A stretch of 11,523 nt of DNA, taken from a virus. The notes under the pieces were generated by a model that saw only the letters and a list, made by a program, of their open reading frames with translations, did not search any database and was not told the DNA's origin. The stretch is from UHGV virus genome UHGV-0861165. One strand, written 5' to 3'. Numbering within the stretch: position 1 is the stretch's first letter; each line of letters opens with the position of its first letter. Of this stretch, positions 1 through 10,330 are shown piece by piece. Position numbers and translations under genes: made by a program.

Positions 1-2748
1 ATTGAGCATGGACCAGATGCTGTCCTGACTTTACCCGAGGGTAATGCCAGCGCAGGACTCCCGTCTTCCGTTCGCTACAATGCCGACTCCGACGAATTTG
101 AGGGCTTCTATGAAAATGGTGGATGGTTGCCGCTGGGTGGCGGTGGTATCCGCTGGGAAGTCCTTCCGCATGCCTCTACGGCAACGCTCACTGAAGGGCG
201 AGGCTATCTCATTAATAATACCACAGGGGCATCTACAGTGGTTCTCCCTTCCCCTACGCGTATTGGGGATTCTGTTACTATTTGTGATGCTTATGGGAAA
301 TTTGCCACTTACCCATTGACTGTGTCTCCTTCTGGAAATAATTTGTATGGCTCCACTGAAGACATGGCTATAACAACTGATAACGTATCAGCAACGTTCA
401 CTTGGTCTGGACCTGAACAAGGTTGGGTTATCACATCCGGTGTCGGTCTTGGCCAAGGTCGTGTCTACAGTCGTGAAATCTTTACAAAAATTTTGGCGTC
501 TGAAACAAGTGCTGTCGCTCTCAATACTCCACCAACAATCGTGGACGTGTATGCTGACGGAAAACGTCTTGCGGAATCCAAATATTCACTAGATGGGAAT
601 GTAATCACTTTCAGTCCTTCTTTGCCAGCCAACACAGAACTTCAGGTGATTGAATATACTCCTATTCAATTGGGTAATAGCGGTGGTTCTGGTTCTTCTA
701 CGATTACCTGGGTCTATAATGGGGGTTCAGCGATTGGCGGTGAAACCGAAATCACTTTGGACGTCGTTGTTGATGATGTTCCGGCCATTGATATAAACGG
801 AAGTCGCCAGTATAAAAATCTGGGATTCACATTCGATCCATTAACCAGTAAAATCTATCTTGCACAAGAACTGGAACCAGAGGATGAAGTTGTTGTAATT
901 ATCAATGGAACACCAAACATCTATAATCAAATTGATCATACTTTGCGGGAAGTTGCTCGTGCTACTAACGTTAAAGACAGTGAAGTAATTCTTAGTTCTG
1001 ACACTACTCAGTCCCTTAATGGTAAGAAGATTATTTACTCTGTTAGTGAGCAGAAGGCATATAGTTTACCTACTCTACCGTCCAATGTATTTATTGAATC
1101 TGTTGAAAGTGGGAAATTAACATATAGTCCTGGCTCAATTAAGGTAGATCTACTCCCATTACCTAATGACTCTGCTGTAACTGAGCAAGCAATTCTCAAC
1201 CAGTTGTCTGCAATTGAAGGTGAATCCCTTATTGGAACAGTTACCTATGTAACCCTGCGAGAGTACACAGGCTCAGCTACACGTGTTAAGTGTATCGGTA
1301 GAAGTGTAGAGGGGGATGGTGGTGAGGGGGACTTCTATTTAGTACCTGGTGATTCTACTTCAGTAGATGATGATGGGGTAATTATTGTTGATGGTTCCGG
1401 CCGTCGTTGGAAACGTTCCTATTCTGGCCCAATTTCTGCCTCTTGGTTCGGTGTAAGAGATGGTACTGACGTCACCACTACACTACAAAATGCAGTTAGT
1501 CGGGGTGGTGGACAAATCTTTGTACAGGACGGTCAGTACACACTTACTGCTCCCATCGTTGCAAATTTTACTGGTGCATCTTTCCCAATTATGGGAAGAA
1601 AAAGTAAGCGTTTTGATTTCATTGGTTCATCCATGGCGAACACCACTTTTAATACTAATGGTAATGAAGCGTTTAGTTTTACCGGTACTGATGGTTCTGT
1701 AGCTGGTCAGGGTGTACATAGTGGTGCACGTATTAGTGACTTCAGCGTCTATGGCACAAATAATACAGGCATTGGTGTACGTTTGGTTGGTGCTGCATAC
1801 CTCAAAGTACATGACCTCCAAATTAAACGTACTAATATCGCTATGCGTATTTCTGGTGTACTCTCAAGTGATATAAAACGAATCAATGCTCAATATAACA
1901 ACCATGGTATGTACATCACCAGTGCTTCTAACAGTACAGTCAATGCTATGCGTATTAGTGGGATGTTTGGTGCTAATAGTAAATGGGGAATTGAAGGTGA
2001 AGTAGGTACTAACGTATACATTGAAGATTCTAATTTTGAGGGTAATGGTACAGATGGGGATGAACTGTCTGGTGCTATTTACTTACGAGTTGTAGAACCT
2101 TTGAGCACCATTAACATTAGTGGGTACTTTGAGGCTAACGTTGGGCGAGCAGATATACTGATAGATAACCGAACCAGCTCTCCTTTGGTTGTAAACCTCC
2201 GTGGTTGCGTATTTAATCGTGGTGGTATGCGTGGTGGGTCTAATCTTGGTATTGGTGCAAAGTATAATGTTGAGACACGCTCTACTGGCGGTGGTCCAAT
2301 CATCCTTAATCTTAATGGTTGTGTATTCTTTACACAGACGGGTTTTGGATATGTACCTAGTGCAGATTCTCCATATATACAACCAGCACCATACTTAACT
2401 GTTAATGGGGAAGATACTTGTTACTTTAGTGAATCTACTAGTCGTGGTGAGACTGGGAACCGTGGTATGACATTAGGTATTTCTATGAAAGCTGATGGAA
2501 CCATGGCCAATAAACCACCTTTCTTAACCTCAACTCGTGTTTCTGCTGGTGTATACACCATCACACACAATACTAGATTCGGGACGGATATTGATCATTT
2601 CCAGGCAGTGGCTACGTCTAAGGCCAGTGGTTTTACTGTATCTTATGTGCAGAAGGTTAACTTACAGGCATTACGCATCGTTACATTAAATGCAGCAGGT
2701 TCGCCTGCTGATACTGATTTTGATGTTATAGTCACTTCTCGTCGTTAA
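1..2748 (+). CDS. Tail spike protein, long form, 5'-partial: N-terminal tandem small beta-domains (gp10-like by recollection), internal docking motif, then right-handed parallel beta-helix depolymerase-type domain
   Basis: Frame 1 has no stop from position 1 to TAA at 2746-2748. The ORF-track start at 127 is a TTG inside this open frame, so the gene begins upstream of the window. The translation shows periodic beta-helix-like repeats rich in G/N/S/T (e.g. GIGVRLVGAAYLKVHDLQIKRTNIAMRISG, NVYIEDSNFEGNG). It is paralogous to ORF3 in the docking motif (REVARATNVKDSEVIL...QKAYSLPTLP) and the pre-helix neck motif. Confidence 0.85.
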   Translation: MEHGPDAVLTLPEGNASAGLPSSVRYNADSDEFEGFYENGGWLPLGGGGIRWEVLPHASTATLTEGRGYLINNTTGASTVVLPSPTRIGDSVTICDAYGKFATYPLTVSPSGNNLYGSTEDMAITTDNVSATFTWSGPEQGWVITSGVGLGQGRVYSREIFTKILASETSAVALNTPPTIVDVYADGKRLAESKYSLDGNVITFSPSLPANTELQVIEYTPIQLGNSGGSGSSTITWVYNGGSAIGGETEITLDVVVDDVPAIDINGSRQYKNLGFTFDPLTSKIYLAQELEPEDEVVVIINGTPNIYNQIDHTLREVARATNVKDSEVILSSDTTQSLNGKKIIYSVSEQKAYSLPTLPSNVFIESVESGKLTYSPGSIKVDLLPLPNDSAVTEQAILNQLSAIEGESLIGTVTYVTLREYTGSATRVKCIGRSVEGDGGEGDFYLVPGDSTSVDDDGVIIVDGSGRRWKRSYSGPISASWFGVRDGTDVTTTLQNAVSRGGGQIFVQDGQYTLTAPIVANFTGASFPIMGRKSKRFDFIGSSMANTTFNTNGNEAFSFTGTDGSVAGQGVHSGARISDFSVYGTNNTGIGVRLVGAAYLKVHDLQIKRTNIAMRISGVLSSDIKRINAQYNNHGMYITSASNSTVNAMRISGMFGANSKWGIEGEVGTNVYIEDSNFEGNGTDGDELSGAIYLRVVEPLSTINISGYFEANVGRADILIDNRTSSPLVVNLRGCVFNRGGMRGGSNLGIGAKYNVETRSTGGGPIILNLNGCVFFTQTGFGYVPSADSPYIQPAPYLTVNGEDTCYFSESTSRGETGNRGMTLGISMKADGTMANKPPFLTSTRVSAGVYTITHNTRFGTDIDHFQAVATSKASGFTVSYVQKVNLQALRIVTLNAAGSPADTDFDVIVTSRR

Positions 2749-2754
2749 CTGATA

Positions 2755-2775
2755 CCCCTCCTCGGAGGGGGTTTC
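2755..2775 (+). terminator. Terminator-like GC hairpin (CCCCTC / GAGGGG stem, short loop) followed by TTTCT
   Basis: Perfect inverted repeat CCCCTC(2755-2760)...GAGGGG(2765-2770) with a T-rich 3' flank, 7 nt after the ORF1 stop. The T-tract is short, so it may be a partial terminator or an RNA-stability element. Confidence 0.55.
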
Positions 2776-2880
2776 TAGAAAAACAATGAGGTACATATGA
2801 ACGGATTATTCTTACAAGGTGGTAAAGGTTCAACCGGGATCTTAACCAATAAACAAGCAATAGCTCGGCATTTCGGTGTC
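2776..2880 (+). repeat. Junction cassette copy A: CTAGAAAAACAA-GAGGT-ATATGAACG plus conserved 5' coding segment of the short tail spike
   Basis: By eye, near-identical at nucleotide level to 8103-8209 (TAGAAAAACAAtGAGGTacATATGAACGgatTaTTCTtACAAGGTGGTAAAGG... versus TAGAAAAACAAaGAGGTttATATGAACGaaaTgTTCTcACAAGGTGGTAAAGG...). Includes the RBS (GAGG) and the ATG at 2797. Confidence 0.7.
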
Positions 2881-5301
2881 AAAGAAGACGAAGTCGTTTA
2901 TTTCACTGTCGGTATTGATCTCAGTGGATTTAAAGTAATTTATGATGAGTCTACCCAACGGGCTTATTCTCTTCCTTCAGGTATTGTTTCAGGAACGACT
3001 GCGATAAGCCTTAATTCTGCTGGGGTATTAGTCCATTCTGCTGGTAATGTGGATTTAGGTGCACTAGCTGTTACCCGGGAAGAGTATGTAACTTTACCTG
3101 GTTCATTCGAGACGGGTGTAACCGTTAATGCCAAGAATGAGTTAGTTGTCTTTGCGAATGGCAAGTATCGTTGGGATGGGGCATTGCCTAAAGTGGTTGA
3201 TGCAGCCTCATCCCCCGAAACCAGTGGTGGTATTGCTTCAGGTGCTTGGGTAGGTGTGGTTTCTGCTCTCCTAACAACAGCCAGCGGTACTGGGCTTGTA
3301 GGTCACAAAGGTGCTAACTTTAGTGACACCACTGCCTACCTTTACCTATCCTGGCGTAATGGTGATATTACTGCATTCGGGGGTGTGTACGATGACGCCT
3401 CAGCTGGTGATCTAAATAAAGCAGCCTTTGCTACTATGCAGGATACTTTTGGGGGTGTACGTATAAACCTCATGGGTAAAGCAGTTTACCTACCAAACTC
3501 TATGGAGTTAGAGGTAGGGAGTCTGGAAATCTGGGGTGGTGGTAATATTTTCGGTGGTTCTGGATACATGTTCCGTGCTGGTGACAACGGATTCGTTAAC
3601 ATTAAGGAATTTACCCTACAAAGTATTGATGCAAGTGGTAACGACTTCACTCGCCTTGTTGGTGCACCCTCTAATCGTGTTAACCTCATCCAGTATGTTG
3701 AAGCAGCATATTTCAAAACGATTGGAAGAGTCATCGTATTCGCTGGCAATGGTCGCGCCGGTGGAGACTTTAATCCAGTAGAGACAAGTTACGGCTGTAA
3801 GCAGATTAACTTCCATCACTTTTCATGCGAAGAGCCAGGAGACTATCTCGTTTCTGCCCAGAACTATCCGTTTGATACCTTCAGTGTCACTAAGTTTTAT
3901 GTACATAATATGAAGGGTACGCTCATCAATGCTGGAATTGATAACGATCATGTCTATGAGCGTCAGCTAAACCACGCAATGAAAACCCTCATCGTTTCCG
4001 ACTACACCGTCATGAACGAAGATGATTTCTGGGCTGATGGCGTCTTTACCTATACTACGGTAGCTATCGCTGAAGTTGAGCACCTAGTTCACACCAACGG
4101 TCGCCAACATGGTGTTAAAGTCAAAGAGGCTGGTAATGTAGTCTACGACATCTACAATAATGCATTTAGCGTCCAAGAAGAAAATATCTTTATCAGTGAC
4201 TGTTTCAACTGGAACGACGGGATGCTCATGCCTCACAAGATTAAAGGGGCGTGGAGCTATTCGAGTAAGAATAAGCACTGGGTGTACCGTAAGAGTTATG
4301 TGGTGGCAATGAAAGCTATTCACAGTGGTATTTCAGAAGGAAACGCCAAAGGTTCTTTCTTCTATCCCGAAACGGATGACCTGCACACTAGTGCTGCTTC
4401 TTCTGTCACTGATTGGACGCAACGACAAATCACGATCACTGACTGTTTCATTGAACTGATTAAAGTTAATCAGGCTAACCTTTCACGTCCATTGTTCAAT
4501 GTGCGTTTGGATGGCAACACCTTTGTTACACACGATTCTGGTACTACCCATTTGGTTCAGTTCTCTGCCTATCCCCATAACCTCTATCAGCAGATGACGG
4601 TAACAAATAACCGTATCATAGCTCCGGCTCTTACGTTATCTGCATTGGTAGGCTTCTCCGCAGGTTCTCAGGCTGGTGGAGGAGTATTCCAGGGGGTTGT
4701 CGATATTTCGAACAATACCGTTCGGGCAGCAGCGGCGAATTTGCTGGCAGATTGGTCTGGTGGTCAGAATATCGGAACTGGGTCAGTCATCCGTATCGAC
4801 AATAACGATATGGTTACCACAGGCAACTGCCAGATCTGTAACTCTAATCCGTCCTATGTTGACTCTGTATTTGCTAGAAACAACTATTTGCAGGGCACTG
4901 CGACTGTAGGGATGGGTAAGCTGAACGCATCTGCCTACGCATATGAGACTGTGAATGGGTTTAAGGGGAACAGTCCGATTGTTCTGTTCCAGCAGGGAAT
5001 CCCAACAGCGCAGCAGATTAATAGTCGCTCGTATCGCCTGGAGATTTCTGGAACTAATGGTGAGAAAGTAACCCAAGGTTTCACTATCACTGCTGGCGTC
5101 AGCACGACTTCAATACGCTTCGTGAGTTCCGATGGGAACACGTACACGAAGGTAACTGGAACCGATAATGGCACCTTCGAAATGCAATCCACTTCATCGG
5201 ATGGGTTAAATTTAGAGGTCGTGGTTGCATCTGATGGTGTAACAGTCAGAACAGCGTCGTCTGTGATGCAAAGGTTTGAAGCTCGACTGTATGCTCTGTA
5301 A
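2797..5301 (+). CDS. Tail spike protein, short form (834 aa): N-terminal anchor module shared with ORF4, divergent central and C-terminal receptor-binding/enzymatic region
   Basis: ATG at 2797 preceded by GAGG with a 5-nt spacer; uninterrupted 2505-nt ORF. The first ~155 aa (MNGLFLQGGKGSTGILTNKQAIARHFGVKEDEVVYF...KVIYDESTQRAYSLP...) are clearly homologous to the ORF4 N-terminus. The C-terminus is rich in G/T/S/V beta-strand-like sequence typical of tail spike C-terminal domains. Enzymatic fold not assignable by eye. Confidence 0.85.
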   Translation: MNGLFLQGGKGSTGILTNKQAIARHFGVKEDEVVYFTVGIDLSGFKVIYDESTQRAYSLPSGIVSGTTAISLNSAGVLVHSAGNVDLGALAVTREEYVTLPGSFETGVTVNAKNELVVFANGKYRWDGALPKVVDAASSPETSGGIASGAWVGVVSALLTTASGTGLVGHKGANFSDTTAYLYLSWRNGDITAFGGVYDDASAGDLNKAAFATMQDTFGGVRINLMGKAVYLPNSMELEVGSLEIWGGGNIFGGSGYMFRAGDNGFVNIKEFTLQSIDASGNDFTRLVGAPSNRVNLIQYVEAAYFKTIGRVIVFAGNGRAGGDFNPVETSYGCKQINFHHFSCEEPGDYLVSAQNYPFDTFSVTKFYVHNMKGTLINAGIDNDHVYERQLNHAMKTLIVSDYTVMNEDDFWADGVFTYTTVAIAEVEHLVHTNGRQHGVKVKEAGNVVYDIYNNAFSVQEENIFISDCFNWNDGMLMPHKIKGAWSYSSKNKHWVYRKSYVVAMKAIHSGISEGNAKGSFFYPETDDLHTSAASSVTDWTQRQITITDCFIELIKVNQANLSRPLFNVRLDGNTFVTHDSGTTHLVQFSAYPHNLYQQMTVTNNRIIAPALTLSALVGFSAGSQAGGGVFQGVVDISNNTVRAAAANLLADWSGGQNIGTGSVIRIDNNDMVTTGNCQICNSNPSYVDSVFARNNYLQGTATVGMGKLNASAYAYETVNGFKGNSPIVLFQQGIPTAQQINSRSYRLEISGTNGEKVTQGFTITAGVSTTSIRFVSSDGNTYTKVTGTDNGTFEMQSTSSDGLNLEVVVASDGVTVRTASSVMQRFEARLYAL

Positions 5302-5302
5302 G

Positions 5303-5330
5303 AACAACCCCGCTTCGGCGGGTTCTTGTT
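5303..5330 (+). terminator. Terminator-like hairpin with CCCGC-TTCG-GCGGG core (UUCG-type tetraloop) and T-rich 3' flank
   Basis: CCCGC(5309-5313) TTCG GCGGG(5318-5322), flanked by partially complementary AACAA/TTGTT arms, followed by TTCTTGTT. Lies immediately after the ORF2 stop (5299-5301). Confidence 0.45.
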
Positions 5331-5360: not shown

Positions 5361-5368
5361 ACTAAATA
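5361..5368 (+). promoter_or_regulatory. ACTAAATA motif, candidate phage late-promoter-like element (T4 late consensus TATAAATA, 6/8 match)
   Basis: The same octamer recurs at 10350-10357 upstream of ORF5, followed in both cases by a similar leader (ATGGRG-ATC-(2-3 nt)-AAATG). The spacing to the downstream start is 34-36 nt if ORF3 starts at 5405. Confidence 0.3.
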
Positions 5369-5404
5369 CCCCATATTGGCAAATCCTCTATGGGGTATCT
5401 TCAA

Positions 5405-8068
5405 ATGACCAGAAACGTCGAGAGCATCTTTGGAGCGGTCGTAACAGCTCCGCACCAGATTCCATACACTTACACAGCAACGGGCGGAGAGAAGTTTATC
5501 TCCCTCCCTTTCTACCCTGTCACTGGTATAGTCACAATCAACGGTGGTATGCAAGTTCCGTTAGACAACTTTGAAATCGATGGAAATACGTTGAATCTCG
5601 GGTGTGCATTATCCAAAGGTGACGTTGTGTTCTGTCTGTTTGATAAGATTCTGTCTCCAGAAGATTATAAAACTGGGATTCGAATCTATAAGTTTCAGGC
5701 TATAGGAGGTGAAACCGAGTTCACTCCTGATTACACATCCTATGGAGTCCAATCTCTTTATATCGGTGGTGAGTACAAAACACCCGAAATTGAATATTCC
5801 TATGACAGCACGACAGGGAAAGTGACTTTACAAACTGCGCTGACTGCAGGCGTTTGGGTAGTCGCTGAAATGTCTGTTAAACAACCGAATATCAGTCCGT
5901 TGTTTGACCGAAGTATTCAAGAAATCGCCCGTTCAGCTAATGTAAAAGATTCTGAGGTAATTCTTAATACGGATACATCTCAAGTACTCAATAACAAGAA
6001 AGTTATCTTCGATGCAGCTGCTCAGAAAATTTATGGCCTGCCTTCATTACCGACCAATGTCTATATTAGTTCTGTGTCTAATGGTCAGTTAACCTACAGT
6101 CCAGGTAACATTACCGTAGATTTGATGGAAGTTCCTAATTCTGGTGCTAGTCTCAGAGAAGACCTGAGTAAGCCTGATGGTAGCAAGCTCATTGGTTCAT
6201 GCCCCAATATTGCAGTACTGCGAACAATTGAGCCTACCTATGCTGAACAACGCATTTACGTAGAAGCACATACTGAAGGTATGATTGCAACCAATGCAGG
6301 TGATTTAGGTGGCGGGTATTTTGTATATAAACCATCTGTTACATCAGCAGATGACAATGGTATGACTATTGTTACTGCATCCGGCAAGCGTTGGGTACGT
6401 GATTTACGTGGTAGCACCGAAGTTACCCCATCTATGTTTGGTGCGTGGATGGATGCTCCTTATATTGATGGGAGCACTATTCAGGGTACACCTTATCCTA
6501 AAGCACCAAGTATGGGGGCTGCTGACCTGTCTGGTGTGCACAATGATGGGGATGCTTTGCTGGCAACCTACACATATGCTGTAGCTAATGGGTTGAATAT
6601 CAAAATTACTCAACCGATGTACATTGGTGATACACAGATTGATATTAGCAATCAGCGTTGGACTGGTAGATCTCTATCCATTACGGGTCTTGGTCAGAGA
6701 CAAAGTATTATTTATACATCAGGTAAGGGTGGATTCATCTCTACCAGATGGGGACACAATATTACCGTTGGTCGCCTCTCTTTCCGTAATGCTGATTCTG
6801 ATTACGTAGGTAGTCCTCTTGTTATCAGTTCATTCGACTTAAGTAATGGCATCGGTGGTGGTGGTAAAACATTCAATATTCACGATGTGGACTTTTACCA
6901 CTATAAGTTCGCTTTGCCTATGGCTTGCTTTGTCAGTGTTATGACCAATTTGTATGCATATGACTGTACCTATGGTTTTGGTATCAATGGAAGCACTAGT
7001 ACGGATATGTCATCTATTTGGGCACACCATTGTGACATTGGCTTTTTATGGGGAGCTGCCATTAATCGTACTACATACGAGCCAGCCAATAATGAAACAC
7101 CTGTTATGTATGTTGCTACCAGCAACATTGCAGCAGATGGTTGCATTTTACCTCATAAATTTTATGGAGATATTCGTAGCCTTTCCTTCTCTGGCTTTGG
7201 TATTGAAGGGATAAATGGTCCAGTGGCATTAGACTTCTCACAGTTAGCCTCCCCTGCTGCACAAACAACAATCGTATTCAGAGATGTTTCTTGTTGGATT
7301 CAGTCTAAAATGAATACTGGTGTAACTCATTTTATTGAGTTGCCTGCTAATGAGTACCAGGCTGGTAGGATTATTTTTGACAGTGGTTACGTTAACTCTG
7401 ACTATGCTATCAAATTGATGGAGAATACCACTTCTCCAAGTAACCAGTATATTGGGCGTAGTGTTACATTAAATAGTAATTTTGAATTTTTAAAAGTTAG
7501 CGATGGTTCCTACACAATATCTACATATAACCGTGGTAACCTTTACCGGGGCAGGGTATATGGAGAAGATATTGTACAAGGTCGTAACTCGTACACGGGT
7601 ACTACTTTGTCAGCAATCCATTCTAATAGTAATTCCTTCTTCAGAAGTGTTGACCATAAGGAAGCTACTGTACTGGTTCCATGGAACAGGGCTTTAGATA
7701 TATTCCTTTGTGCTGTAGGGGAAGAGACTAAAATTCCGGATGGTTGCTTCGTTGCTGGGCGTGCAGATATCATTCCAGTTAACAAAAATGGTTTGGCTGG
7801 TACTGAATCAGGGGGCAGTATTCTGTTTGGGCTATCCGGTAGCACACAGGAAAATGTAGCCTCTGGTGCAGTCTGGTCTAATATGATTGCTGGTGATAAA
7901 TCTCTTTCCGGGGTAACAGTAACTAAACTGGTACGTGATGGTAAAACATTTGTTAGAATCGCATTGCCTACGGCAAGCCTAACAAATGCAATCGTTCACC
8001 TTTCTGTAACCTACTGTGGTTTTGCACATTACTACGATAAGCGTTGGGAAATAAAACCCTTAAGCTAA
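5405..8068 (+). CDS. Tail spike protein, long form (887 aa from ATG 5405; 892 aa if the in-frame ATG at 5390 is used): N-terminal tandem small beta-domains, docking motif, neck motif, beta-helix depolymerase-type domain
   Basis: Uninterrupted frame to TAA 8066-8068. Start ambiguity: the ATG at 5390 has no SD and sits in the 3' arm of an inverted repeat, whereas the ATG at 5405 has a leader that parallels the ORF5 leader. The protein is paralogous to ORF1 in the docking motif (QEIARSANVKDSEVIL...QKIYGLPSLP) and the neck motif (GGGYFVYKPSVTSADDNGMTIVTASGKRWVRD). Confidence 0.85.
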   Translation: MTRNVESIFGAVVTAPHQIPYTYTATGGEKFISLPFYPVTGIVTINGGMQVPLDNFEIDGNTLNLGCALSKGDVVFCLFDKILSPEDYKTGIRIYKFQAIGGETEFTPDYTSYGVQSLYIGGEYKTPEIEYSYDSTTGKVTLQTALTAGVWVVAEMSVKQPNISPLFDRSIQEIARSANVKDSEVILNTDTSQVLNNKKVIFDAAAQKIYGLPSLPTNVYISSVSNGQLTYSPGNITVDLMEVPNSGASLREDLSKPDGSKLIGSCPNIAVLRTIEPTYAEQRIYVEAHTEGMIATNAGDLGGGYFVYKPSVTSADDNGMTIVTASGKRWVRDLRGSTEVTPSMFGAWMDAPYIDGSTIQGTPYPKAPSMGAADLSGVHNDGDALLATYTYAVANGLNIKITQPMYIGDTQIDISNQRWTGRSLSITGLGQRQSIIYTSGKGGFISTRWGHNITVGRLSFRNADSDYVGSPLVISSFDLSNGIGGGGKTFNIHDVDFYHYKFALPMACFVSVMTNLYAYDCTYGFGINGSTSTDMSSIWAHHCDIGFLWGAAINRTTYEPANNETPVMYVATSNIAADGCILPHKFYGDIRSLSFSGFGIEGINGPVALDFSQLASPAAQTTIVFRDVSCWIQSKMNTGVTHFIELPANEYQAGRIIFDSGYVNSDYAIKLMENTTSPSNQYIGRSVTLNSNFEFLKVSDGSYTISTYNRGNLYRGRVYGEDIVQGRNSYTGTTLSAIHSNSNSFFRSVDHKEATVLVPWNRALDIFLCAVGEETKIPDGCFVAGRADIIPVNKNGLAGTESGGSILFGLSGSTQENVASGAVWSNMIAGDKSLSGVTVTKLVRDGKTFVRIALPTASLTNAIVHLSVTYCGFAHYYDKRWEIKPLS

Positions 8069-8078
8069 TTAACTACCC

Positions 8079-8102
8079 CCACCCCCTTTATGGGGGTGGT
8101 TT
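8079..8102 (+). terminator. Terminator-like hairpin CCACCCCC-TTTAT-GGGGGTGG followed by TTT
   Basis: Perfect 8-bp inverted repeat (8079-8086 / 8092-8099) with a 5-nt loop and a TTT 3' tail, 10 nt after the ORF3 stop. Confidence 0.6.
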
Positions 8103-8209
8103 ACTAGAAAAACAAAGAGGTTTATATGAACGAAATGTTCTCACAAGGTGGTAAAGGCTCCACTGGTATTCTTACCAATAAGCAAGCCATTGCCCGTAAG
8201 TTTGGTGTT
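8103..8209 (+). repeat. Junction cassette copy B (see 2776-2880)
   Basis: Nucleotide-level similarity to copy A spans the leader, RBS, ATG (8126) and the first ~80 nt of coding sequence. Confidence 0.7.
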
Positions 8210-10297
8210 AAGCAATCTGAGGTTGTTTATGCCAAATCAGGACAGTCCTTGTCTGGTTATAAAGTAATCTACGATAAGGTCACTCAGCGCTCCTATGCAC
8301 TGCCTTCTAACCTGCCTGCTGGCGCTACCATCACCAGCCTGACAGACGGCATTCTCGTACACAATACGGGCACCGTAGACCTGGGTGCTCTGGCTGTACT
8401 GCGCGGGGAGTTCGTTACTCTGGTCGAAAACTTTACGTCTGGATTTACGATTCGTGTCAAAAACGAAGTTGTAAGTGATGGGGTAAATTTGTATCGCTGG
8501 GGTGGTAGTTTACCAAAGACCGTTAATTCTGGTGAAACTTTAGAAAGCACTGGGGGTATGAATACGAATGCGTGGATTGGCGTTGTATCGCTTAATAACT
8601 CATTTTTGAGTGTAAATGCTCTAAGGGCGTCAGAAAACTTAAATAAAAATATACCATTGTTTCTTTCAAGTTATTATGAAGGTATTGATGGCGGCGGCGG
8701 GTCTTTCTACGTAGATACCAACGACACTACGTCATCAGATAACAATGGTACAGTATTTGTTAACGCCTCTGGCCAGCGCATAAAACGTATTTCAGATGGT
8801 GTATGTCGTTGGTCAGACTTCGGAATTCTTCCAGGCATGCCGGTAGCGCCTACAAAATCGCAGTGTGAAGCCGTTTGGTCGTGGGGGTTTGCAAATGGGT
8901 GTACTCGTTATGAAACCTTCCAGAAAGGGGAGATGACGTTCACCTTCCCCCTGTTGTTCCAAGTTCCGGCTAACTGGACAGGTGGTGCTGTTAGCTTCAT
9001 TGCAGAAGGGTTGCATAAATTTGCTTATGATTTCAAAAATGGCGCTACAGATGATGTGATTGAGATCCTCCTTAAACTGGAAGATCTGTCAGGTAATACA
9101 CCCATCCATACTGTTTATAATTTTGATAACGTTGGGATGGGACGGTTCCCCGGGAAAAACATCCGATATACCGCACTGCGACACACGAGCGCAAAAAACT
9201 CAATGATCAAGGTTACTGGGAAGAACAACTACGGATATGCCTTGTTCATAGGCGGTAGTGATAACAGCATCGTGTACAATTCAACGTTTTATAACTGCGA
9301 TGGCCAGTTGCTTGTAAATTCTCCAGCAGGCGGTTACGACAGCTTTGGTGATGCAATTTATGTTGGCGCTAAAAATGTGTCTATCCAGAGTCCTGTAATT
9401 GAAACAACACAGGGTGGTAGAGCCGGTATCGTATTTGAAGGGACATGGGTTGAACGTGTTGGTGGTGAGGTAACAAACTGCTTTATTAAGGGATATGACC
9501 GTGGTATTCACATAGAGACTGTAGGTTTCAGGATGGATGCAATTAATATTACTGGAGGCAGGATACAAGATTGCAATACCAGCGTATTGGCATTCAATGG
9601 TGTAACTGATGATATGGGTAGTGATATGTCTGTTATCATCAAGGGGTTAACGTCAAGGCTTGATAGCACAATTTCAGGCCACGCCAATCCGTCTGGTTTT
9701 AGCCTGGGACACCTTATGGTATCTGGAGTTAACACACAAGTAACAACGGAAGGGTGCTCATGGCAGACTCACCAGAACAACATCACCGTTGTGGGTAATG
9801 GGAAATGGGTGAGCAATGGTGACCGCATGTTTGTTAACTCTGGTGGCATCAACCTGCCGTACACTCGTGGGTGCGAGATAAACAATCTGTACGCACCACA
9901 GAACAGAAACGCGTTAAAATCCGCAGGTAATTTAGTCTTTACAAACTCTTATTGGGGAGGGGACATTAACATAACCGGGGGCAATAAAACAATTATTGAT
10001 AACGTCGAGATGTCAAGACAAGGAGGATATGCAAACTGTGGTCGTATCAGTCTGGTTGGCTCCAATAGTGCGATATTGCGTAATATTATATTCCAGTATC
10101 CAGACTCATGGGCAATAGATAATACTCAAACTTGGCAGGTCCCCGTGTGTCCTATCATAGAAAACATCCACGTAAATAGCGTAGAAACAGGAACTGCAAC
10201 ATTACAAAGAAACGCAGAAAGTGGGGCTAATAATCGGTACAGAAGGTCTATTCCTTCATATATATCAAACGGAAGTACATGGACGATAATTAGTTAA
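8126..10297 (+). CDS. Tail spike protein, short form (723 aa): shared N-terminal anchor module, neck motif, right-handed beta-helix (pectate-lyase-like) depolymerase-type domain
   Basis: ATG at 8126 preceded by GAGG (8117-8120); uninterrupted 2172-nt ORF. The N-terminal ~150 aa are homologous to ORF2. Typical beta-helix repeats are visible (GGSDNSIVYNSTFYNCDGQLLVNS, AIYVGAKNVSIQSPVIETTQGGRAGIVFEG, TNCFIKGYDRGIHIET). Confidence 0.88.
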   Translation: MNEMFSQGGKGSTGILTNKQAIARKFGVKQSEVVYAKSGQSLSGYKVIYDKVTQRSYALPSNLPAGATITSLTDGILVHNTGTVDLGALAVLRGEFVTLVENFTSGFTIRVKNEVVSDGVNLYRWGGSLPKTVNSGETLESTGGMNTNAWIGVVSLNNSFLSVNALRASENLNKNIPLFLSSYYEGIDGGGGSFYVDTNDTTSSDNNGTVFVNASGQRIKRISDGVCRWSDFGILPGMPVAPTKSQCEAVWSWGFANGCTRYETFQKGEMTFTFPLLFQVPANWTGGAVSFIAEGLHKFAYDFKNGATDDVIEILLKLEDLSGNTPIHTVYNFDNVGMGRFPGKNIRYTALRHTSAKNSMIKVTGKNNYGYALFIGGSDNSIVYNSTFYNCDGQLLVNSPAGGYDSFGDAIYVGAKNVSIQSPVIETTQGGRAGIVFEGTWVERVGGEVTNCFIKGYDRGIHIETVGFRMDAINITGGRIQDCNTSVLAFNGVTDDMGSDMSVIIKGLTSRLDSTISGHANPSGFSLGHLMVSGVNTQVTTEGCSWQTHQNNITVVGNGKWVSNGDRMFVNSGGINLPYTRGCEINNLYAPQNRNALKSAGNLVFTNSYWGGDINITGGNKTIIDNVEMSRQGGYANCGRISLVGSNSAILRNIIFQYPDSWAIDNTQTWQVPVCPIIENIHVNSVETGTATLQRNAESGANNRYRRSIPSYISNGSTWTIIS

Positions 10298-10302
10298 CAA
10301 AG

Positions 10303-10330
10303 CCCCTCTTCGGAGGGGTTTCTTCTTTCT
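10303..10330 (+). terminator. Rho-independent-type terminator: CCCCTC-TTCG-GAGGGG hairpin followed by TTTCTTCTTTCT
   Basis: Perfect 6-bp GC stem with a TTCG tetraloop and a pyrimidine/T-rich tail, 5 nt after the ORF4 stop. The stem sequence is nearly the same as the hairpin at 2755-2775. Confidence 0.65.

What the first reader, a model, noticed from the sequence alone, without database searches (positions are those of the whole stretch)
2797..3264. Shared N-terminal anchor module in the two short spikes, with a sharp divergence point
ORF2 and ORF4 are clearly homologous over the first ~155 aa (MN..F.QGGKGSTGILTNKQAIAR.FGVK..EVVY....LSG.KVIYD..TQR.Y.LPS...VDLGALAV.R.E.VTL....GVVS). Immediately afterwards they become unrelated (ORF2 ALLTTASGTG..., ORF4 LNNSFLSVNALRASENL...). 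That is the signature of a conserved attachment domain fused to exchangeable receptor-binding domains. The counterpart is ORF4 8126-8590.
Basis: seen in the sequence. Interest (0 to 1): 0.55.

Follow-up and report, generated by a model that had tools for sequence, protein, structure and literature searches.

The report
Shared docking head of two tailspikes
Two of the four tailspike genes of this Ackermannviridae phage begin with the same well-known 155-residue "head" that plugs the spike into the phage's branched spike complex, and continue with unrelated, horizontally exchanged sugar-recognising domains. This is an ordinary, already documented design, though the head in the third-spike slot is an unusual patchwork.

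Summary
ORF2 (2797-5301) and ORF4 (8126-10297) are 58% identical over aa 1-156/1-155 (E=1e-50) and unrelated afterwards. The window is the tsp4-tsp3-tsp2-tsp1 tailspike cluster of an Ackermannviridae (Agtrevirus-like) phage. The shared module is the D1-D2 (TD1-TD2) head of TSP1/TSP3, solved for CBA120 (4OJ5, 6NW9). In CBA120 it docks on the gp10-like XD3 domains of TSP4 and TSP2. Both partners lie in the window (ORF1, ORF3) and match CBA120 closely.

The divergence point is the D2/neck border, where engineered chimeras were cut. Heads are similar in 153/153 pairs across ten phages; C-termini in 6/153. Both receptor domains recur on P22-type, epsilon15-type, T7-type and other anchors.

Refinements:
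- The heads are old paralogs (57% nt identity, third positions 33%).
- D2 is a widespread adaptor, not anchor-specific.
- Each head is a recombinant patchwork.
- ORF2 is a tsp1-type gene (leader, aa 1-25, aa 74-155) in the tsp3 slot, carrying a tsp3-type patch (aa 26-73).
- ORF4's receptor core is 93-100% nt identical to an E. coli P22-like prophage tailspike.

The parts
2755..2792 (+). tsp1-type leader of ORF2: a GC hairpin (CCCCTCC-TCGG-AGGGGG, 2755-2771), then TTT, then the 18-mer CTAGAAAAACAATGAGGT that contains the ribosome-binding site
   Evidence: Read from the sequence. The 18-mer occurs only twice in the window. In the other Ackermannviridae loci that carry it, it occurs once, and in the seven annotated ones just before tsp1. 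ORF2 lacks the CTAAATACCCC motif that precedes tsp3 in other four-spike phages.
2797..2871 (+). ORF2 head, aa 1-25: disordered N-terminal peptide plus the first helix of D1, of TSP1 type
   Evidence: The first 51 nt (aa 1-17) are 90% identical to AV101 and SJ2 tsp1 and 29% to tsp3 genes. Informative sites over the leader plus aa 1-25 run 48:8 in favour of TSP1. In the AF2 model residues 1-16 have pLDDT below 50 and residues 18-26 form a helix.
2872..3015 (+). ORF2 head, aa 26-73: D1 core, a TSP3-type patch that ends inside the motif GTTAISL
   Evidence: 93-95% nt identity to tsp3 of AV101, Det7, PC3, YX22 and SJ2, against 64-69% to tsp1 genes. Informative sites run 6:43. The Fisher tests against the flanking segments give p=7e-15 and p=3e-12.
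3016..3084 (+). ORF2 head, aa 74-96: end of D1, again of TSP1 type (AV101/LHE287-like)
   Evidence: 90% nt identity to AV101 tsp1, 86% to LHE287 tsp1 and 54-58% to tsp3 genes. Informative sites run 25:2.
3085..3264 (+). ORF2 D2 domain (Pfam Tail_spike_N), up to the divergence point at aa 156
   Evidence: PF18668 matches aa 91-154 with E=8.7e-21. The domain is 63-76% nt identical to TSP1, TSP3 and TSP4 heads of most of the phages compared, 41-54% to a few TSP1s, and has no close donor.
3265..5298 (+). ORF2 neck/linker (aa ~154-175) followed by a beta-helix receptor-binding domain and a C-terminal beta-sandwich
   Evidence: In the AF2 model the linker 154-175 has pLDDT below 50 and the beta-helix starts at about aa 221. 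The Foldseek hits are tailspikes. The closest phage relative is the Kapi1 tailspike, 42% identical from ORF2 aa 159. Identity to every other protein cluster found (90% clusters) is at most 44%.
8079..8121 (+). tsp1-type leader of ORF4: hairpin CCACCCCC-TTTAT-GGGGGTGG (8079-8099), then TTTA, then the 18-mer CTAGAAAAACAAAGAGGT
8126..8212 (+). ORF4 head, aa 1-29: N-terminal peptide and first helix, of the TSP1 'MNEMFSQGGKGSTG' type
   Evidence: 94-100% nt identity to tsp1 of YX22, fGh-Ecl02, PC3, A221 and LHE287. Informative sites YX22:Det7 run 56:3.
8213..8590 (+). ORF4 head, aa 30-155: D1 core and D2 of the Det7/Ag3 TSP1 type, with a further switch near aa 130
   Evidence: aa 30-96 are 87-89% nt identical to Det7 tsp1, 83-86% to Ag3 tsp1 and about 55% to the other tsp1 type. 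Informative sites run 5:71, then 5:32, then 15:5. PF18668 matches aa 97-153 with E=1.4e-12.
8591..10294 (+). ORF4 receptor-binding domain, a beta-helix depolymerase fold, preceded by a shortened neck
   Evidence: ORF4 lacks the six residues GDASLR that SJ2 TSP1 and Tyrion have at this point. The AF2 model has pLDDT 84.6 and its Foldseek hits are tailspikes. The domain is 85% identical to SJ2 TSP1, 83% to Tyrion and 66% to CrRp3.
8815..10174 (+). Tract inside the ORF4 receptor domain that is nearly identical to the tailspike of a P22-like E. coli prophage
   Evidence: 95.8% nt identity over 1360 nt to NZ_CP080066.1. Per 30-codon window the identity is 93-100% over aa 241-660 (one window 82%) and 43-73% in the flanks. 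The prophage protein carries a P22 Head_binding N-terminus (P0018).
703..915 (+). XD3 domain of ORF1 (TSP4), the inferred docking site for the TSP1-type head. The borders are approximate and mapped from CBA120 TSP4 residues 265-335.
   Evidence: ORF1 aa 1-308 align with CBA120 TSP4-N335 (7REJ) residues 31-338 at E=2.7e-183, nearly identical. Chao 2022 showed that TSP1 binding needs the TSP4 XD3 domain (PMC8825819).
5669..5908 (+). XD3 domain of ORF3 (TSP2), the inferred docking site for the TSP3-type head. The borders are approximate and mapped from the CBA120 TSP2 region after residue 88.
   Evidence: ORF3 aa 6-353 align with CBA120 TSP2 (6W4Q) residues 1-342 at E=2.4e-142. The role of TSP2 XD3 in binding TSP3 comes from PMC8825819.

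Best explanation
The window is the tail-spike cluster of an Ackermannviridae phage: tsp4 (ORF1, cut at its 5' end by the window), a gene in the tsp3 slot (ORF2), tsp2 (ORF3), tsp1 (ORF4), then the start of vriC. The segment shared by ORF2 and ORF4 is the D1-D2 'head' of TSP1/TSP3. It is a trimerising N-terminal module whose D1 apex docks on the trimeric gp10-like XD3 domain of a long spike. In CBA120, TSP1 docks on TSP4 XD3, and TSP3 docks on TSP2 XD3 within the TSP2:TSP4 complex. The result is a branched complex of four spikes on the baseplate. After D2 come a short flexible neck and then a beta-helix domain that binds and probably cleaves a polysaccharide; this domain sets host specificity.

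Purifying selection on docking keeps the heads alike at protein level. The receptor domains are replaced by recombination with other phages and prophages, which produces the sharp paralog divergence at aa 156.

Shown here: the homology, the domain borders, the genomic context, the presence of both XD3 partners, the constant-head/variable-tail pattern, mosaic breakpoints, and one very recent exchange with a prophage.

Inferred by homology with CBA120: the physical docking and which head goes on which XD3.
For: The head homology is E=1e-50 and stops at aa 156. Both heads match CBA120 TSP1 4OJ5, TSP3 6NW9, G7C gp63.1 4QNL and B2 gp48 9D84. PF18668 scores above its cut-off.

The cluster is syntenic with 281 phage records, nearly all named for enterobacterial hosts; the ones examined are Ackermannviridae, and the neighbouring genes agree. 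ORF1 carries AD-XD1-XD2-XD3, almost identical to 7REJ, and ORF3 carries XD2-XD3-D1 like 6W4Q. Binding experiments in CBA120 show that the TSP1 head binds TSP4 XD3 and that the TSP3 head needs TSP2:TSP4 (PMC8825819).

Third-codon identity between the two heads is 33% while amino-acid identity is 58%, which indicates old paralogs under purifying selection. Heads are similar in 153/153 pairs and C-termini in 6/153. The head is found in 966 phage records, the C-termini in 2 and 6. The same receptor domains occur on P22 Head_binding, epsilon15-like, T7-tail-fibre, 'MATQPT' and anchorless N-termini, with junctions at ORF2 aa 159 and ORF4 aa 160.

The AF2 models place a low-confidence linker exactly at the break. 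Functional chimeras were made by cutting at TSP3 Ala157 and TSP1 aa 149-153 (PMC9965104). The ORF4 receptor core is 93-100% nt identical to an E. coli prophage tailspike.
Against: No binding or structural data exist for these particular proteins. ORF2 is not a canonical TSP3: it has a tsp1-type leader and N-terminal peptide, and no promoter-like motif of its own. Its docking partner is therefore uncertain. ORF4 lacks the conserved GDASLR start of the neck. D2 also occurs on spikes with quite different anchors, so only part of the 'anchor module' is likely to make the attachment. The most recent exchange detected used crossovers inside the receptor domain, not at the module border.
Confidence: 0.9

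Rival explanations
1. Partner assignment differs from CBA120. ORF2 is essentially a second TSP1, so both short spikes dock through the same kind of apex. Either the two XD3 sites accept either head interchangeably, or ORF2 competes with ORF4 for the TSP4 XD3 site. In this reading the TSP3-type patch is a neutral by-product of recombination.
For: ORF2 has the tsp1 leader, the tsp1-type aa 1-25 (including the first helix...NKQAIARH) and tsp1-type aa 74-96. A near-identical receptor domain exists on a pure TSP1-type head (P0056). Three-spike phages (A221, LHE287) keep a TSP2 whose N-terminal region (which includes XD3) is 90% identical at DNA level, yet have no tsp3 gene. That suggests the site can stay empty or accept another head.
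Against: The D1 core aa 26-73 is 93-95% nt identical to bona fide tsp3 genes across two subfamilies. This looks like a retained or selected feature. The gene also sits in the tsp3 slot. In CBA120 the two heads behave differently in binding assays (PMC8825819).
Confidence: 0.2
2. The similarity comes from a recent intragenomic duplication or gene conversion between the two genes, with no shared functional constraint.
For: The first 105 nt are 74% identical and the leaders share an exact 18-mer apart from one N position.
Against: Overall nt identity is 57%, third positions are 33% identical, and the longest exact run is 15 nt. Each segment of each head has a much closer relative in another phage (83-100% nt) than in its paralog. 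The shared C-terminal 'GVVS' uses different codons at every synonymous site.
Confidence: 0.02
3. The module is a direct particle-binding or baseplate-binding anchor, like the P22 head-binding domain or the T7 gp17 N-terminus, rather than a spike-on-spike docking head.
For: It is N-terminal and conserved, and it occupies the same place as P22-type and T7-type anchors in proteins that carry the same receptor domains.
Against: There is no similarity to PF09008 or PF03906. The homologous CBA120 heads bind XD3 domains, and only the TSP4 AD domain is assigned to the baseplate. In G7C and B2 the homologous spike is carried by a partner protein that has gp10-like domains. Both XD3 partners are present in the window.
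Confidence: 0.04

Closest known systems
CBA120 TSP1 (ORF210, PDB 4OJ5) and TSP3 (ORF212, PDB 6NW9/5W6F) head domains D1-D2
   Same: The same N-terminal two-domain head of about 155 aa. The ORF2 head matches TSP1 at E=1e-69 and TSP3 at E=1.9e-65; the ORF4 head matches at 2.6e-51 and 1.2e-40. Both are followed by a neck and a beta-helix receptor domain. The gene order is the same, and the XD3-bearing partners are nearly identical to those of CBA120.
   Different: The receptor domains are unrelated to those of CBA120. The ORF2 head is a TSP1/TSP3 chimera with a tsp1 leader, and ORF4 combines two TSP1 head types. ORF4 lacks the GDASLR neck motif.
Agtrevirus/Kuttervirus tsp clusters (AV101, YX22, fGh-Ecl02, A221, LHE287, Det7, SJ2, Ag3) and the TSP-subtype framework of Sorensen et al. 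2021/2023
   Same: Conserved N-termini with unique receptor domains. The GTTA(V/I)SL motif in D1, proposed there as a recombination site, is where one ORF2 breakpoint maps. Receptor domains are shared with prophages and distant phages.
   Different: No record covers 80% or more of the window. Among the loci examined, this phage alone has two genes with the tsp1 leader and only two CTAAATACCCC motifs although it has four spikes. Its TSP4 carries a TSP2-type D1 and no D2.
G7C gp63.1 (PDB 4QNL) and Shigella phage B2 gp48 (PDB 9D84), Schitoviridae
   Same: The same D1-D2 head at the N-terminus (E=1e-52 to 1e-64). The spike is carried by a partner with gp10-like domains (gp66 or gp49). The same 18-nt leader is present in contigs of about 71 kb.
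   Different: These are podophages with one or two spikes and an esterase receptor domain. There is no four-spike branched complex.
P22-like tailspikes (Kapi1; E. coli prophage WP_063122163.1) and epsilon15-like, T7-like and Vectrevirus spikes (Tyrion, CrRp3)
   Same: They carry the same receptor-binding domains as ORF2 (42%) and ORF4 (66-90% at protein level; up to 100% nt in the core). The junction lies at the equivalent of aa 159/160.
   Different: Their N-terminal anchors are entirely different: P22 Head_binding PF09008, the epsilon15-type N-terminus plus D2, T7 PF03906 plus D2, or no anchor at all.

Membership tests
Ackermannviridae TSP1/TSP3 head module (D1-D2 = TD1-TD2) | An N-terminal segment of about 155 aa homologous to the solved D1-D2 heads of CBA120 TSP1 and TSP3 | tested here: met
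   phmmer against the PDB: ORF2 aa 1-166 vs 4OJ5 at E=1e-69 and vs 6NW9 at 1.9e-65; ORF4 aa 1-154 vs 4OJ5 at 2.6e-51 and vs 6NW9 at 1.2e-40.
Ackermannviridae TSP1/TSP3 head module (D1-D2 = TD1-TD2) | D2 matches Pfam PF18668 (Tail_spike_N) above the gathering score | tested here: met
   ORF2 scores 74.2 bits and ORF4 48 bits against a cut-off of 25.
Ackermannviridae TSP1/TSP3 head module (D1-D2 = TD1-TD2) | The head is followed by a short neck and a parallel beta-helix receptor-binding/depolymerase body | tested here: met
   The AF2 models show beta-helices after a low-confidence linker at aa ~154-175 (ORF2) or ~150-160 (ORF4). The Foldseek hits are tailspikes. One caveat: the ORF4 neck lacks GDASLR.
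Ackermannviridae TSP1/TSP3 head module (D1-D2 = TD1-TD2) | Encoded in a tsp cluster between baseplate-wedge genes and vriC, together with TSP4 (AD-XD1-XD2-XD3) and TSP2 (XD2-XD3) | tested here: met
   Synteny with annotated phages. The upstream context is seen in L014. ORF1 matches 7REJ and ORF3 matches 6W4Q.
Ackermannviridae TSP1/TSP3 head module (D1-D2 = TD1-TD2) | The head trimer physically docks on an XD3 trimer | not testable with these tools
   Known only for CBA120 (PMC8825819). No complex prediction or binding assay was available here.
Canonical TSP3 orthologue (for ORF2) | The gene lies between tsp4 and tsp2 | tested here: met
   Gene order in the window and in L014.
Canonical TSP3 orthologue (for ORF2) | TSP3-type N-terminal peptide (MISQFNQPRGSTSIEV...) | tested here: not met
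   ORF2 starts MNGLFLQGGKGSTGILT. Its first 51 nt are 29% identical to tsp3 genes and 90% to AV101/SJ2 tsp1.
Canonical TSP3 orthologue (for ORF2) | Its own CTAAATACCCC motif about 40 nt upstream, as in the other four-spike phages | tested here: not met
   The motif is present before tsp4, tsp3 and tsp2 in fGh-Ecl02, YX22, SJ2, Det7, AV101 and CBA120. In this phage it is present only before tsp4 (L014) and tsp2 (5362-5372).
Canonical TSP3 orthologue (for ORF2) | TSP3-type D1 core | tested here: met
   aa 30-73 are 93-95% nt identical to tsp3 of five phages; informative sites over aa 26-73 run 6:43 in favour of TSP3.
Canonical TSP1 orthologue (for ORF4) | The last tsp gene before vriC, with a hairpin plus the CTAGAAAAACAANGAGGT leader and the MNEMFSQGGKGSTG N-terminus | tested here: met
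   From aa 30 on, however, the D1 core and D2 belong to the alternative Det7/Ag3 TSP1 type.
P22-type head-binding anchor (PF09008) | An N-terminal Head_binding domain | tested here: not met
   No Pfam hit in ORF2 or ORF4. The domain is present only in relatives that share the receptor domains.

The most novel reading that the evidence does not exclude
ORF2 records a natural 'retargeting' event. A tsp1-type spike gene (leader, N-terminal peptide, first helix, end of D1, D2 and receptor domain, as preserved intact in P0056) was placed in the tsp3 slot. It acquired only the 48-codon TSP3-type D1 core (aa 26-73). If that patch was selected, it maps the determinant of which XD3 site a head docks on (TSP2 versus TSP4) to the D1 beta-core, not to the N-terminal peptide or helix. 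The phage would then have reorganised its cluster into two promoter-led pairs: tsp4 followed by a rider gene, and tsp2 followed by a rider gene.
Probability: 0.25. Interest if true: 0.5.

Novelty: new member of a known kind. Interest (0 to 1): 0.25.

Why it matters
The module and its break point follow the established plug-and-play logic of Ackermannviridae host range, so the finding mainly confirms the annotation. It identifies the window as a four-spike cluster and tells an engineer where receptor domains can be swapped (aa ~156).

The added details have modest value. They give natural, statistically clear breakpoints at the ARxFGVK and GTTA(I/V)SL motifs. The second of these is a published but untested proposal for a recombination site. 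They supply a candidate specificity patch for head-XD3 pairing. They also give a concrete case of very recent receptor-domain exchange between a temperate E. coli prophage and a virulent phage, which points to E. coli as a likely host.

Tried and rejected
1. A large-database search with the head alone returned only 42 short fragments of 93-261 aa. It could not measure C-terminal diversity, so I used the phage collection and ten fetched clusters instead.

2. I could not find the genomic context of P0056, which has the same receptor domain as ORF2 on a pure TSP1 head. Scans for the ORF2 receptor domain found nothing in viral, metagenome or genome contigs, and there was no DNA match in complete E. 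coli genomes.

3. Pfam gives no family for either receptor domain, nor for ORF1 or ORF3, in the local copy. The precomputed tables list PF27114 on the relatives that share the ORF4 receptor domain and, in L014, on the TSP4 and TSP2 products (ORF1, ORF3), but I could not test it here.

4. The sigma-70 promoter scan found fewer sites than in shuffled sequence, so it was uninformative. The terminator scan picked up the hairpins at 5309-5322 and 10300-10321 but missed those before ORF2 and ORF4, which I read by eye.

5. Recent duplication or gene conversion between ORF2 and ORF4 was considered and rejected on codon-position identities.

6. The shared 'GVVS' ending of both D2 domains was considered as a sign of conversion. 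I rejected this because every synonymous position differs and similar variants occur elsewhere.
Full report
**What the window is.** Four long ORFs lie on the + strand.
- ORF1: frame 1 is open from nt 1 to 2748, so the gene is cut at its 5' end by the window.
- ORF2: 2797-5301.
- ORF3: 5390-8068.
- ORF4: 8126-10297.

Megablast against 50,697 phage records finds 281 records, nearly all named for enterobacterial hosts (Salmonella, Escherichia, Dickeya, Shigella, Enterobacter). The ones examined are Ackermannviridae; the closest are the Aglimvirinae phages YX22, A221, AV101, PC3 and LHE287, and fGh-Ecl02. No record covers 80% or more of the window. The matches are patchy: gene 5' ends and flanks match, and most 3' parts do not. 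Annotated neighbours show the canonical order: baseplate wedge, tsp4, tsp3, tsp2, tsp1, vriC. ORF1-ORF4 are therefore TSP4, the gene in the TSP3 slot, TSP2 and TSP1. vriC starts at about 10393.

**The observation.** ORF2 and ORF4 align over aa 1-156 and 1-155 with 58% identity (E=1e-50). Nothing else aligns; the next HSP has E=0.59.

At DNA level the modules share only 57% identity. First, second and third codon positions are 66%, 72% and 33% identical, and the longest exact run is 15 nt. These are old paralogs kept similar by selection on the protein. They are not a DNA repeat or a fresh duplication.

The homology starts before the ATG. Both genes are preceded by a GC hairpin and the 18-mer CTAGAAAAACAANGAGGT, which occurs only at these two places in the window.

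**What the module is.** Both N-termini match several solved heads:
- CBA120 TSP1 (4OJ5): E=1e-69 for ORF2 and 2.6e-51 for ORF4.
- CBA120 TSP3 (6NW9): E=1.9e-65 and 1.2e-40.
- G7C gp63.1 (4QNL) and Shigella phage B2 gp48 (9D84).

Residues ~91-154 are Pfam PF18668, the 'Tail spike TSP1/Gp66 N-terminal domain'. In the published nomenclature this is the head: D1 (~aa 11-96) plus D2 (~97-155), followed by a helical neck and the D3 beta-helix (PMC8825819).

The AF2 models agree with this layout.
- D1 and D2 are confidently folded.
- Residues 1-16 are disordered.
- A low-confidence linker sits exactly at the divergence point: ORF2 aa 154-175 with pLDDT below 50, and ORF4 with a dip at aa 150-160.
- Beta-helices follow, and their Foldseek hits are phage tailspikes and depolymerases.

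**How it most likely works.** In CBA120, ultracentrifugation showed three things (PMC8825819; summarised in PMC11414711):
- The TSP1 head binds the XD3 domain of TSP4.
- TSP2 binds TSP4 through XD2.
- The TSP3 head binds once TSP2:TSP4 has formed, and it is modelled on TSP2 XD3.

Both partners are in the window and closely match the CBA120 proteins. ORF1 aa 1-308 match TSP4-N335 (7REJ residues 31-338, E=2.7e-183). ORF3 aa 6-353 match TSP2 (6W4Q, E=2.4e-142). I infer that ORF4 and ORF2 ride on ORF1 and ORF3 in the same way. This step rests on homology and was not tested here.

A weaker D1-like domain also sits after XD3 in ORF1 and ORF3 (E=3e-14 and 2.5e-10 against ORF4). D1 is therefore common to all four spikes, while D2 is present only in the two short ones.

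**Constant head, variable tail.**
- tblastn finds the head in 966 phage records, 349 of them with at least 80% coverage. Partial matches show that D1 and D2 also circulate separately: D2 alone in K1F-like, Kayfunavirus and Klebsiella podophages, and D1 alone in others.
- The ORF2 C-terminal part matches only two records. The best is the Kapi1 tailspike at 42%, a P22-like Lederbergvirus.
- The ORF4 C-terminal part matches three phages: SJ2 TSP1 at 85%, Tyrion at 83% and CrRp3 at 66%.
- Among 18 TSP1/TSP3 proteins from ten phages, all 153 head pairs are similar (median 66% identity, minimum 47%). Only 6 of 153 C-terminal pairs give any hit.
- In a 5.8-billion-protein collection, the two receptor domains occur behind many kinds of N-terminus. 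These include P22 Head_binding (PF09008), an epsilon15-type N-terminus plus D2, a 'MATQPT...' N-terminus plus D2, a T7 tail-fibre N-terminus (PF03906) plus D2, several others, and almost no N-terminus at all (CrRp3 type).
- With P22-type proteins the homology begins at ORF2 aa 159 and ORF4 aa 160. With D2-bearing proteins it begins at about aa 87-103.

The aa-156 border is thus a general module junction. Engineered CBA120/SPTD1 chimeras cut at TSP3 Ala157 and TSP1 aa 149-153 were functional (PMC9965104).

**Refinement 1: the heads are mosaics.** I compared segment-wise nucleotide identities and counted informative sites.

| Gene | Segment | Closest type | nt identity | Informative sites |
|---|---|---|---|---|
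| ORF2 | leader + aa 1-25 | tsp1 | 82% (leader) and 90% (aa 1-17) to AV101 tsp1; 29% (aa 1-17) to tsp3 | 48:8 (tsp1:tsp3) |
| ORF2 | aa 26-73 | tsp3 | 93-95% to five tsp3 genes (aa 30-73) | 6:43 |
| ORF2 | aa 74-96 | tsp1 | 90% to AV101 tsp1 | 25:2 |
| ORF2 | D2 (aa 97-155) | no close donor | 63-76% to most heads, 41-54% to a few TSP1s | 25:27 |
| ORF4 | leader + aa 1-29 | tsp1 of YX22, fGh-Ecl02, PC3 | 94-100% (aa 1-29) | 56:3 (YX22:Det7) |
| ORF4 | aa 30-96 | alternative TSP1 type of Det7/Ag3 | 83-89% | 5:71 |
| ORF4 | aa 97-130 | Det7/Ag3 type | 62-65% over the whole D2 (aa 97-155) | 5:32 |
| ORF4 | aa 131-155 | switches back | not scored separately | 15:5 |

For ORF2, Fisher tests between adjacent segments give p=7e-15 and p=3e-12. 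For ORF4, the test between the first two segments gives p=4e-28.

The ORF2 breakpoints fall at codons 21-25, in the motif ARxFGVK, and at codons 70-71, inside GTTAISL. The second is the motif that Sorensen et al. 2021 proposed as a recombination site (PMC8432352).

**Refinement 2: ORF2 is a tsp1-type gene in the tsp3 slot.** In the other Ackermannviridae loci that carry the 18-mer leader it occurs once; in the seven annotated ones it lies directly before tsp1. Here it occurs twice. No IMG/VR contig returned had two copies.

The motif CTAAATACCCC lies about 40 nt upstream of tsp4, tsp3 and tsp2 in the four-spike phages. In this phage it precedes only tsp4 (L014) and tsp2 (5362-5372).

A 90%-cluster mate of ORF2, P0056, has the same receptor domain: 21 differences over aa 174-834. 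Its head, however, is a pure TSP1-type head without the TSP3 patch. The simplest history is that a tsp1-type gene received a 48-codon tsp3 patch. Whether the patch matters for docking is unknown; see the novel case.

**Refinement 3: recent exchange does not respect the border.** Window 8815-10174 is 95.8% nt identical to the tailspike of a P22-like prophage in E. coli 19SZHZ803Rt, whose N-terminus is a P22 head-binding domain. In 30-codon windows the identity is 93-100% over aa 241-660, apart from one window at 82%. It falls to 43-68% over aa 151-240 and 67-73% after aa 660. The long-term module junction is at aa 156, but this particular recent event used crossovers inside the receptor domain. 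It also points to E. coli as a host.

**Other details.** ORF4 lacks the six residues GDASLR at the start of the neck that SJ2 TSP1 and Tyrion have. The D1 that follows XD3 in ORF1 is of TSP2 type (72% to PC3 TSP2), and ORF1 has no D2, unlike most TSP4s.

**Comparison with what is known, and novelty.** Conserved N-terminal heads, unique receptor domains and exchange with prophages and distant phages are all published for CBA120, Kuttervirus and Agtrevirus. The finding is therefore correct but already explained. The proteins are new members: the ORF2 receptor domain is at most 44% identical to every other protein cluster found (clusters at 90% identity), and the ORF2 head and leader arrangement are unusual.

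**Verdict.** The interest is low, 0.25. The chimeric ORF2 head is the one lead worth a bench test.

Noticed in passing
window 2755-2792 and 8079-8121; loci L001-L008, L013: A GC hairpin plus the 18-mer CTAGAAAAACAANGAGGT precedes both ORF2 and ORF4. In the other Ackermannviridae loci that carry it, this leader occurs once per cluster, and in the annotated ones always before tsp1. It also occurs in Schitoviridae-like contigs of about 71 kb. Leader and head seem to travel together.
   Followed up: yes
window 5362-5372; L014 3176-3186; loci L001-L031: CTAAATACCCC lies about 40 nt upstream of tsp4, tsp3 and tsp2 in four-spike phages (three copies) and is never found before tsp1. This phage has only two copies, before tsp4 and tsp2, so ORF2 probably depends on read-through from tsp4. 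A related sequence, CTAAATATCTC, lies before vriC at about 10351.
   Followed up: partly
window 8815-10174: The ORF4 receptor-domain core is 93-100% nt identical (one 30-codon window 82%) to the tailspike of a P22-like prophage in E. coli 19SZHZ803Rt (NZ_CP080066.1, next to an acyltransferase and intS). Both flanks are diverged. This is a very recent exchange between a temperate and a virulent phage, and a hint that the host is E. coli.
   Followed up: yes
window 880-1240 (ORF1 aa ~296-410): After XD3, the TSP4 of this phage carries a TSP2-type D1 (72% to PC3 TSP2; window nt 949-1141 hits tsp2 of A221 and AV101) and no D2. Most TSP4s carry a TSP1-like D1-D2 head at this position. DNA homology to the closest tsp4 genes stops at nt 977.
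   Followed up: partly
window 8585-8600 (ORF4 aa 153-158): ORF4 lacks the six residues GDASLR that begin the neck in SJ2 TSP1 and Tyrion. Both ORF2 and ORF4 end D2 with GVVS instead of the usual SVGD, and they use different codons to do so.
   Followed up: partly
P0056 (ENA, 8 contigs, same 90% cluster as ORF2): P0056 has the same receptor domain as ORF2 (21 differences over aa 174-834) on a pure TSP1-type head without the TSP3 patch. Its genomic slot could not be looked up.
   Followed up: partly
window 5390-5407: ORF3 can start at ATG 5390 (MGYLQMTRNV..., as annotated in LHE287 and PC3) or at ATG 5405 (MTRNV..., as in most relatives and in the CBA120 TSP2 structure). Neither start has an obvious ribosome-binding site.
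   Followed up: no
one search hits (e.g. Salmonella phages SJ3 and 38): Many stand-alone proteins of 100-260 aa consist only of the head. They suggest split, truncated or frameshifted tsp genes in deposited genomes and assemblies.
   Followed up: no
window 5309-5322 and 10300-10321: Terminator-like hairpins follow ORF2 (CCCGC-TTCG-GCGGG plus a T-run) and ORF4 (AAGCCCCTC-TTCG-GAGGGGTTT plus a T-run). They are consistent with transcription-unit ends after each short spike.
   Followed up: no
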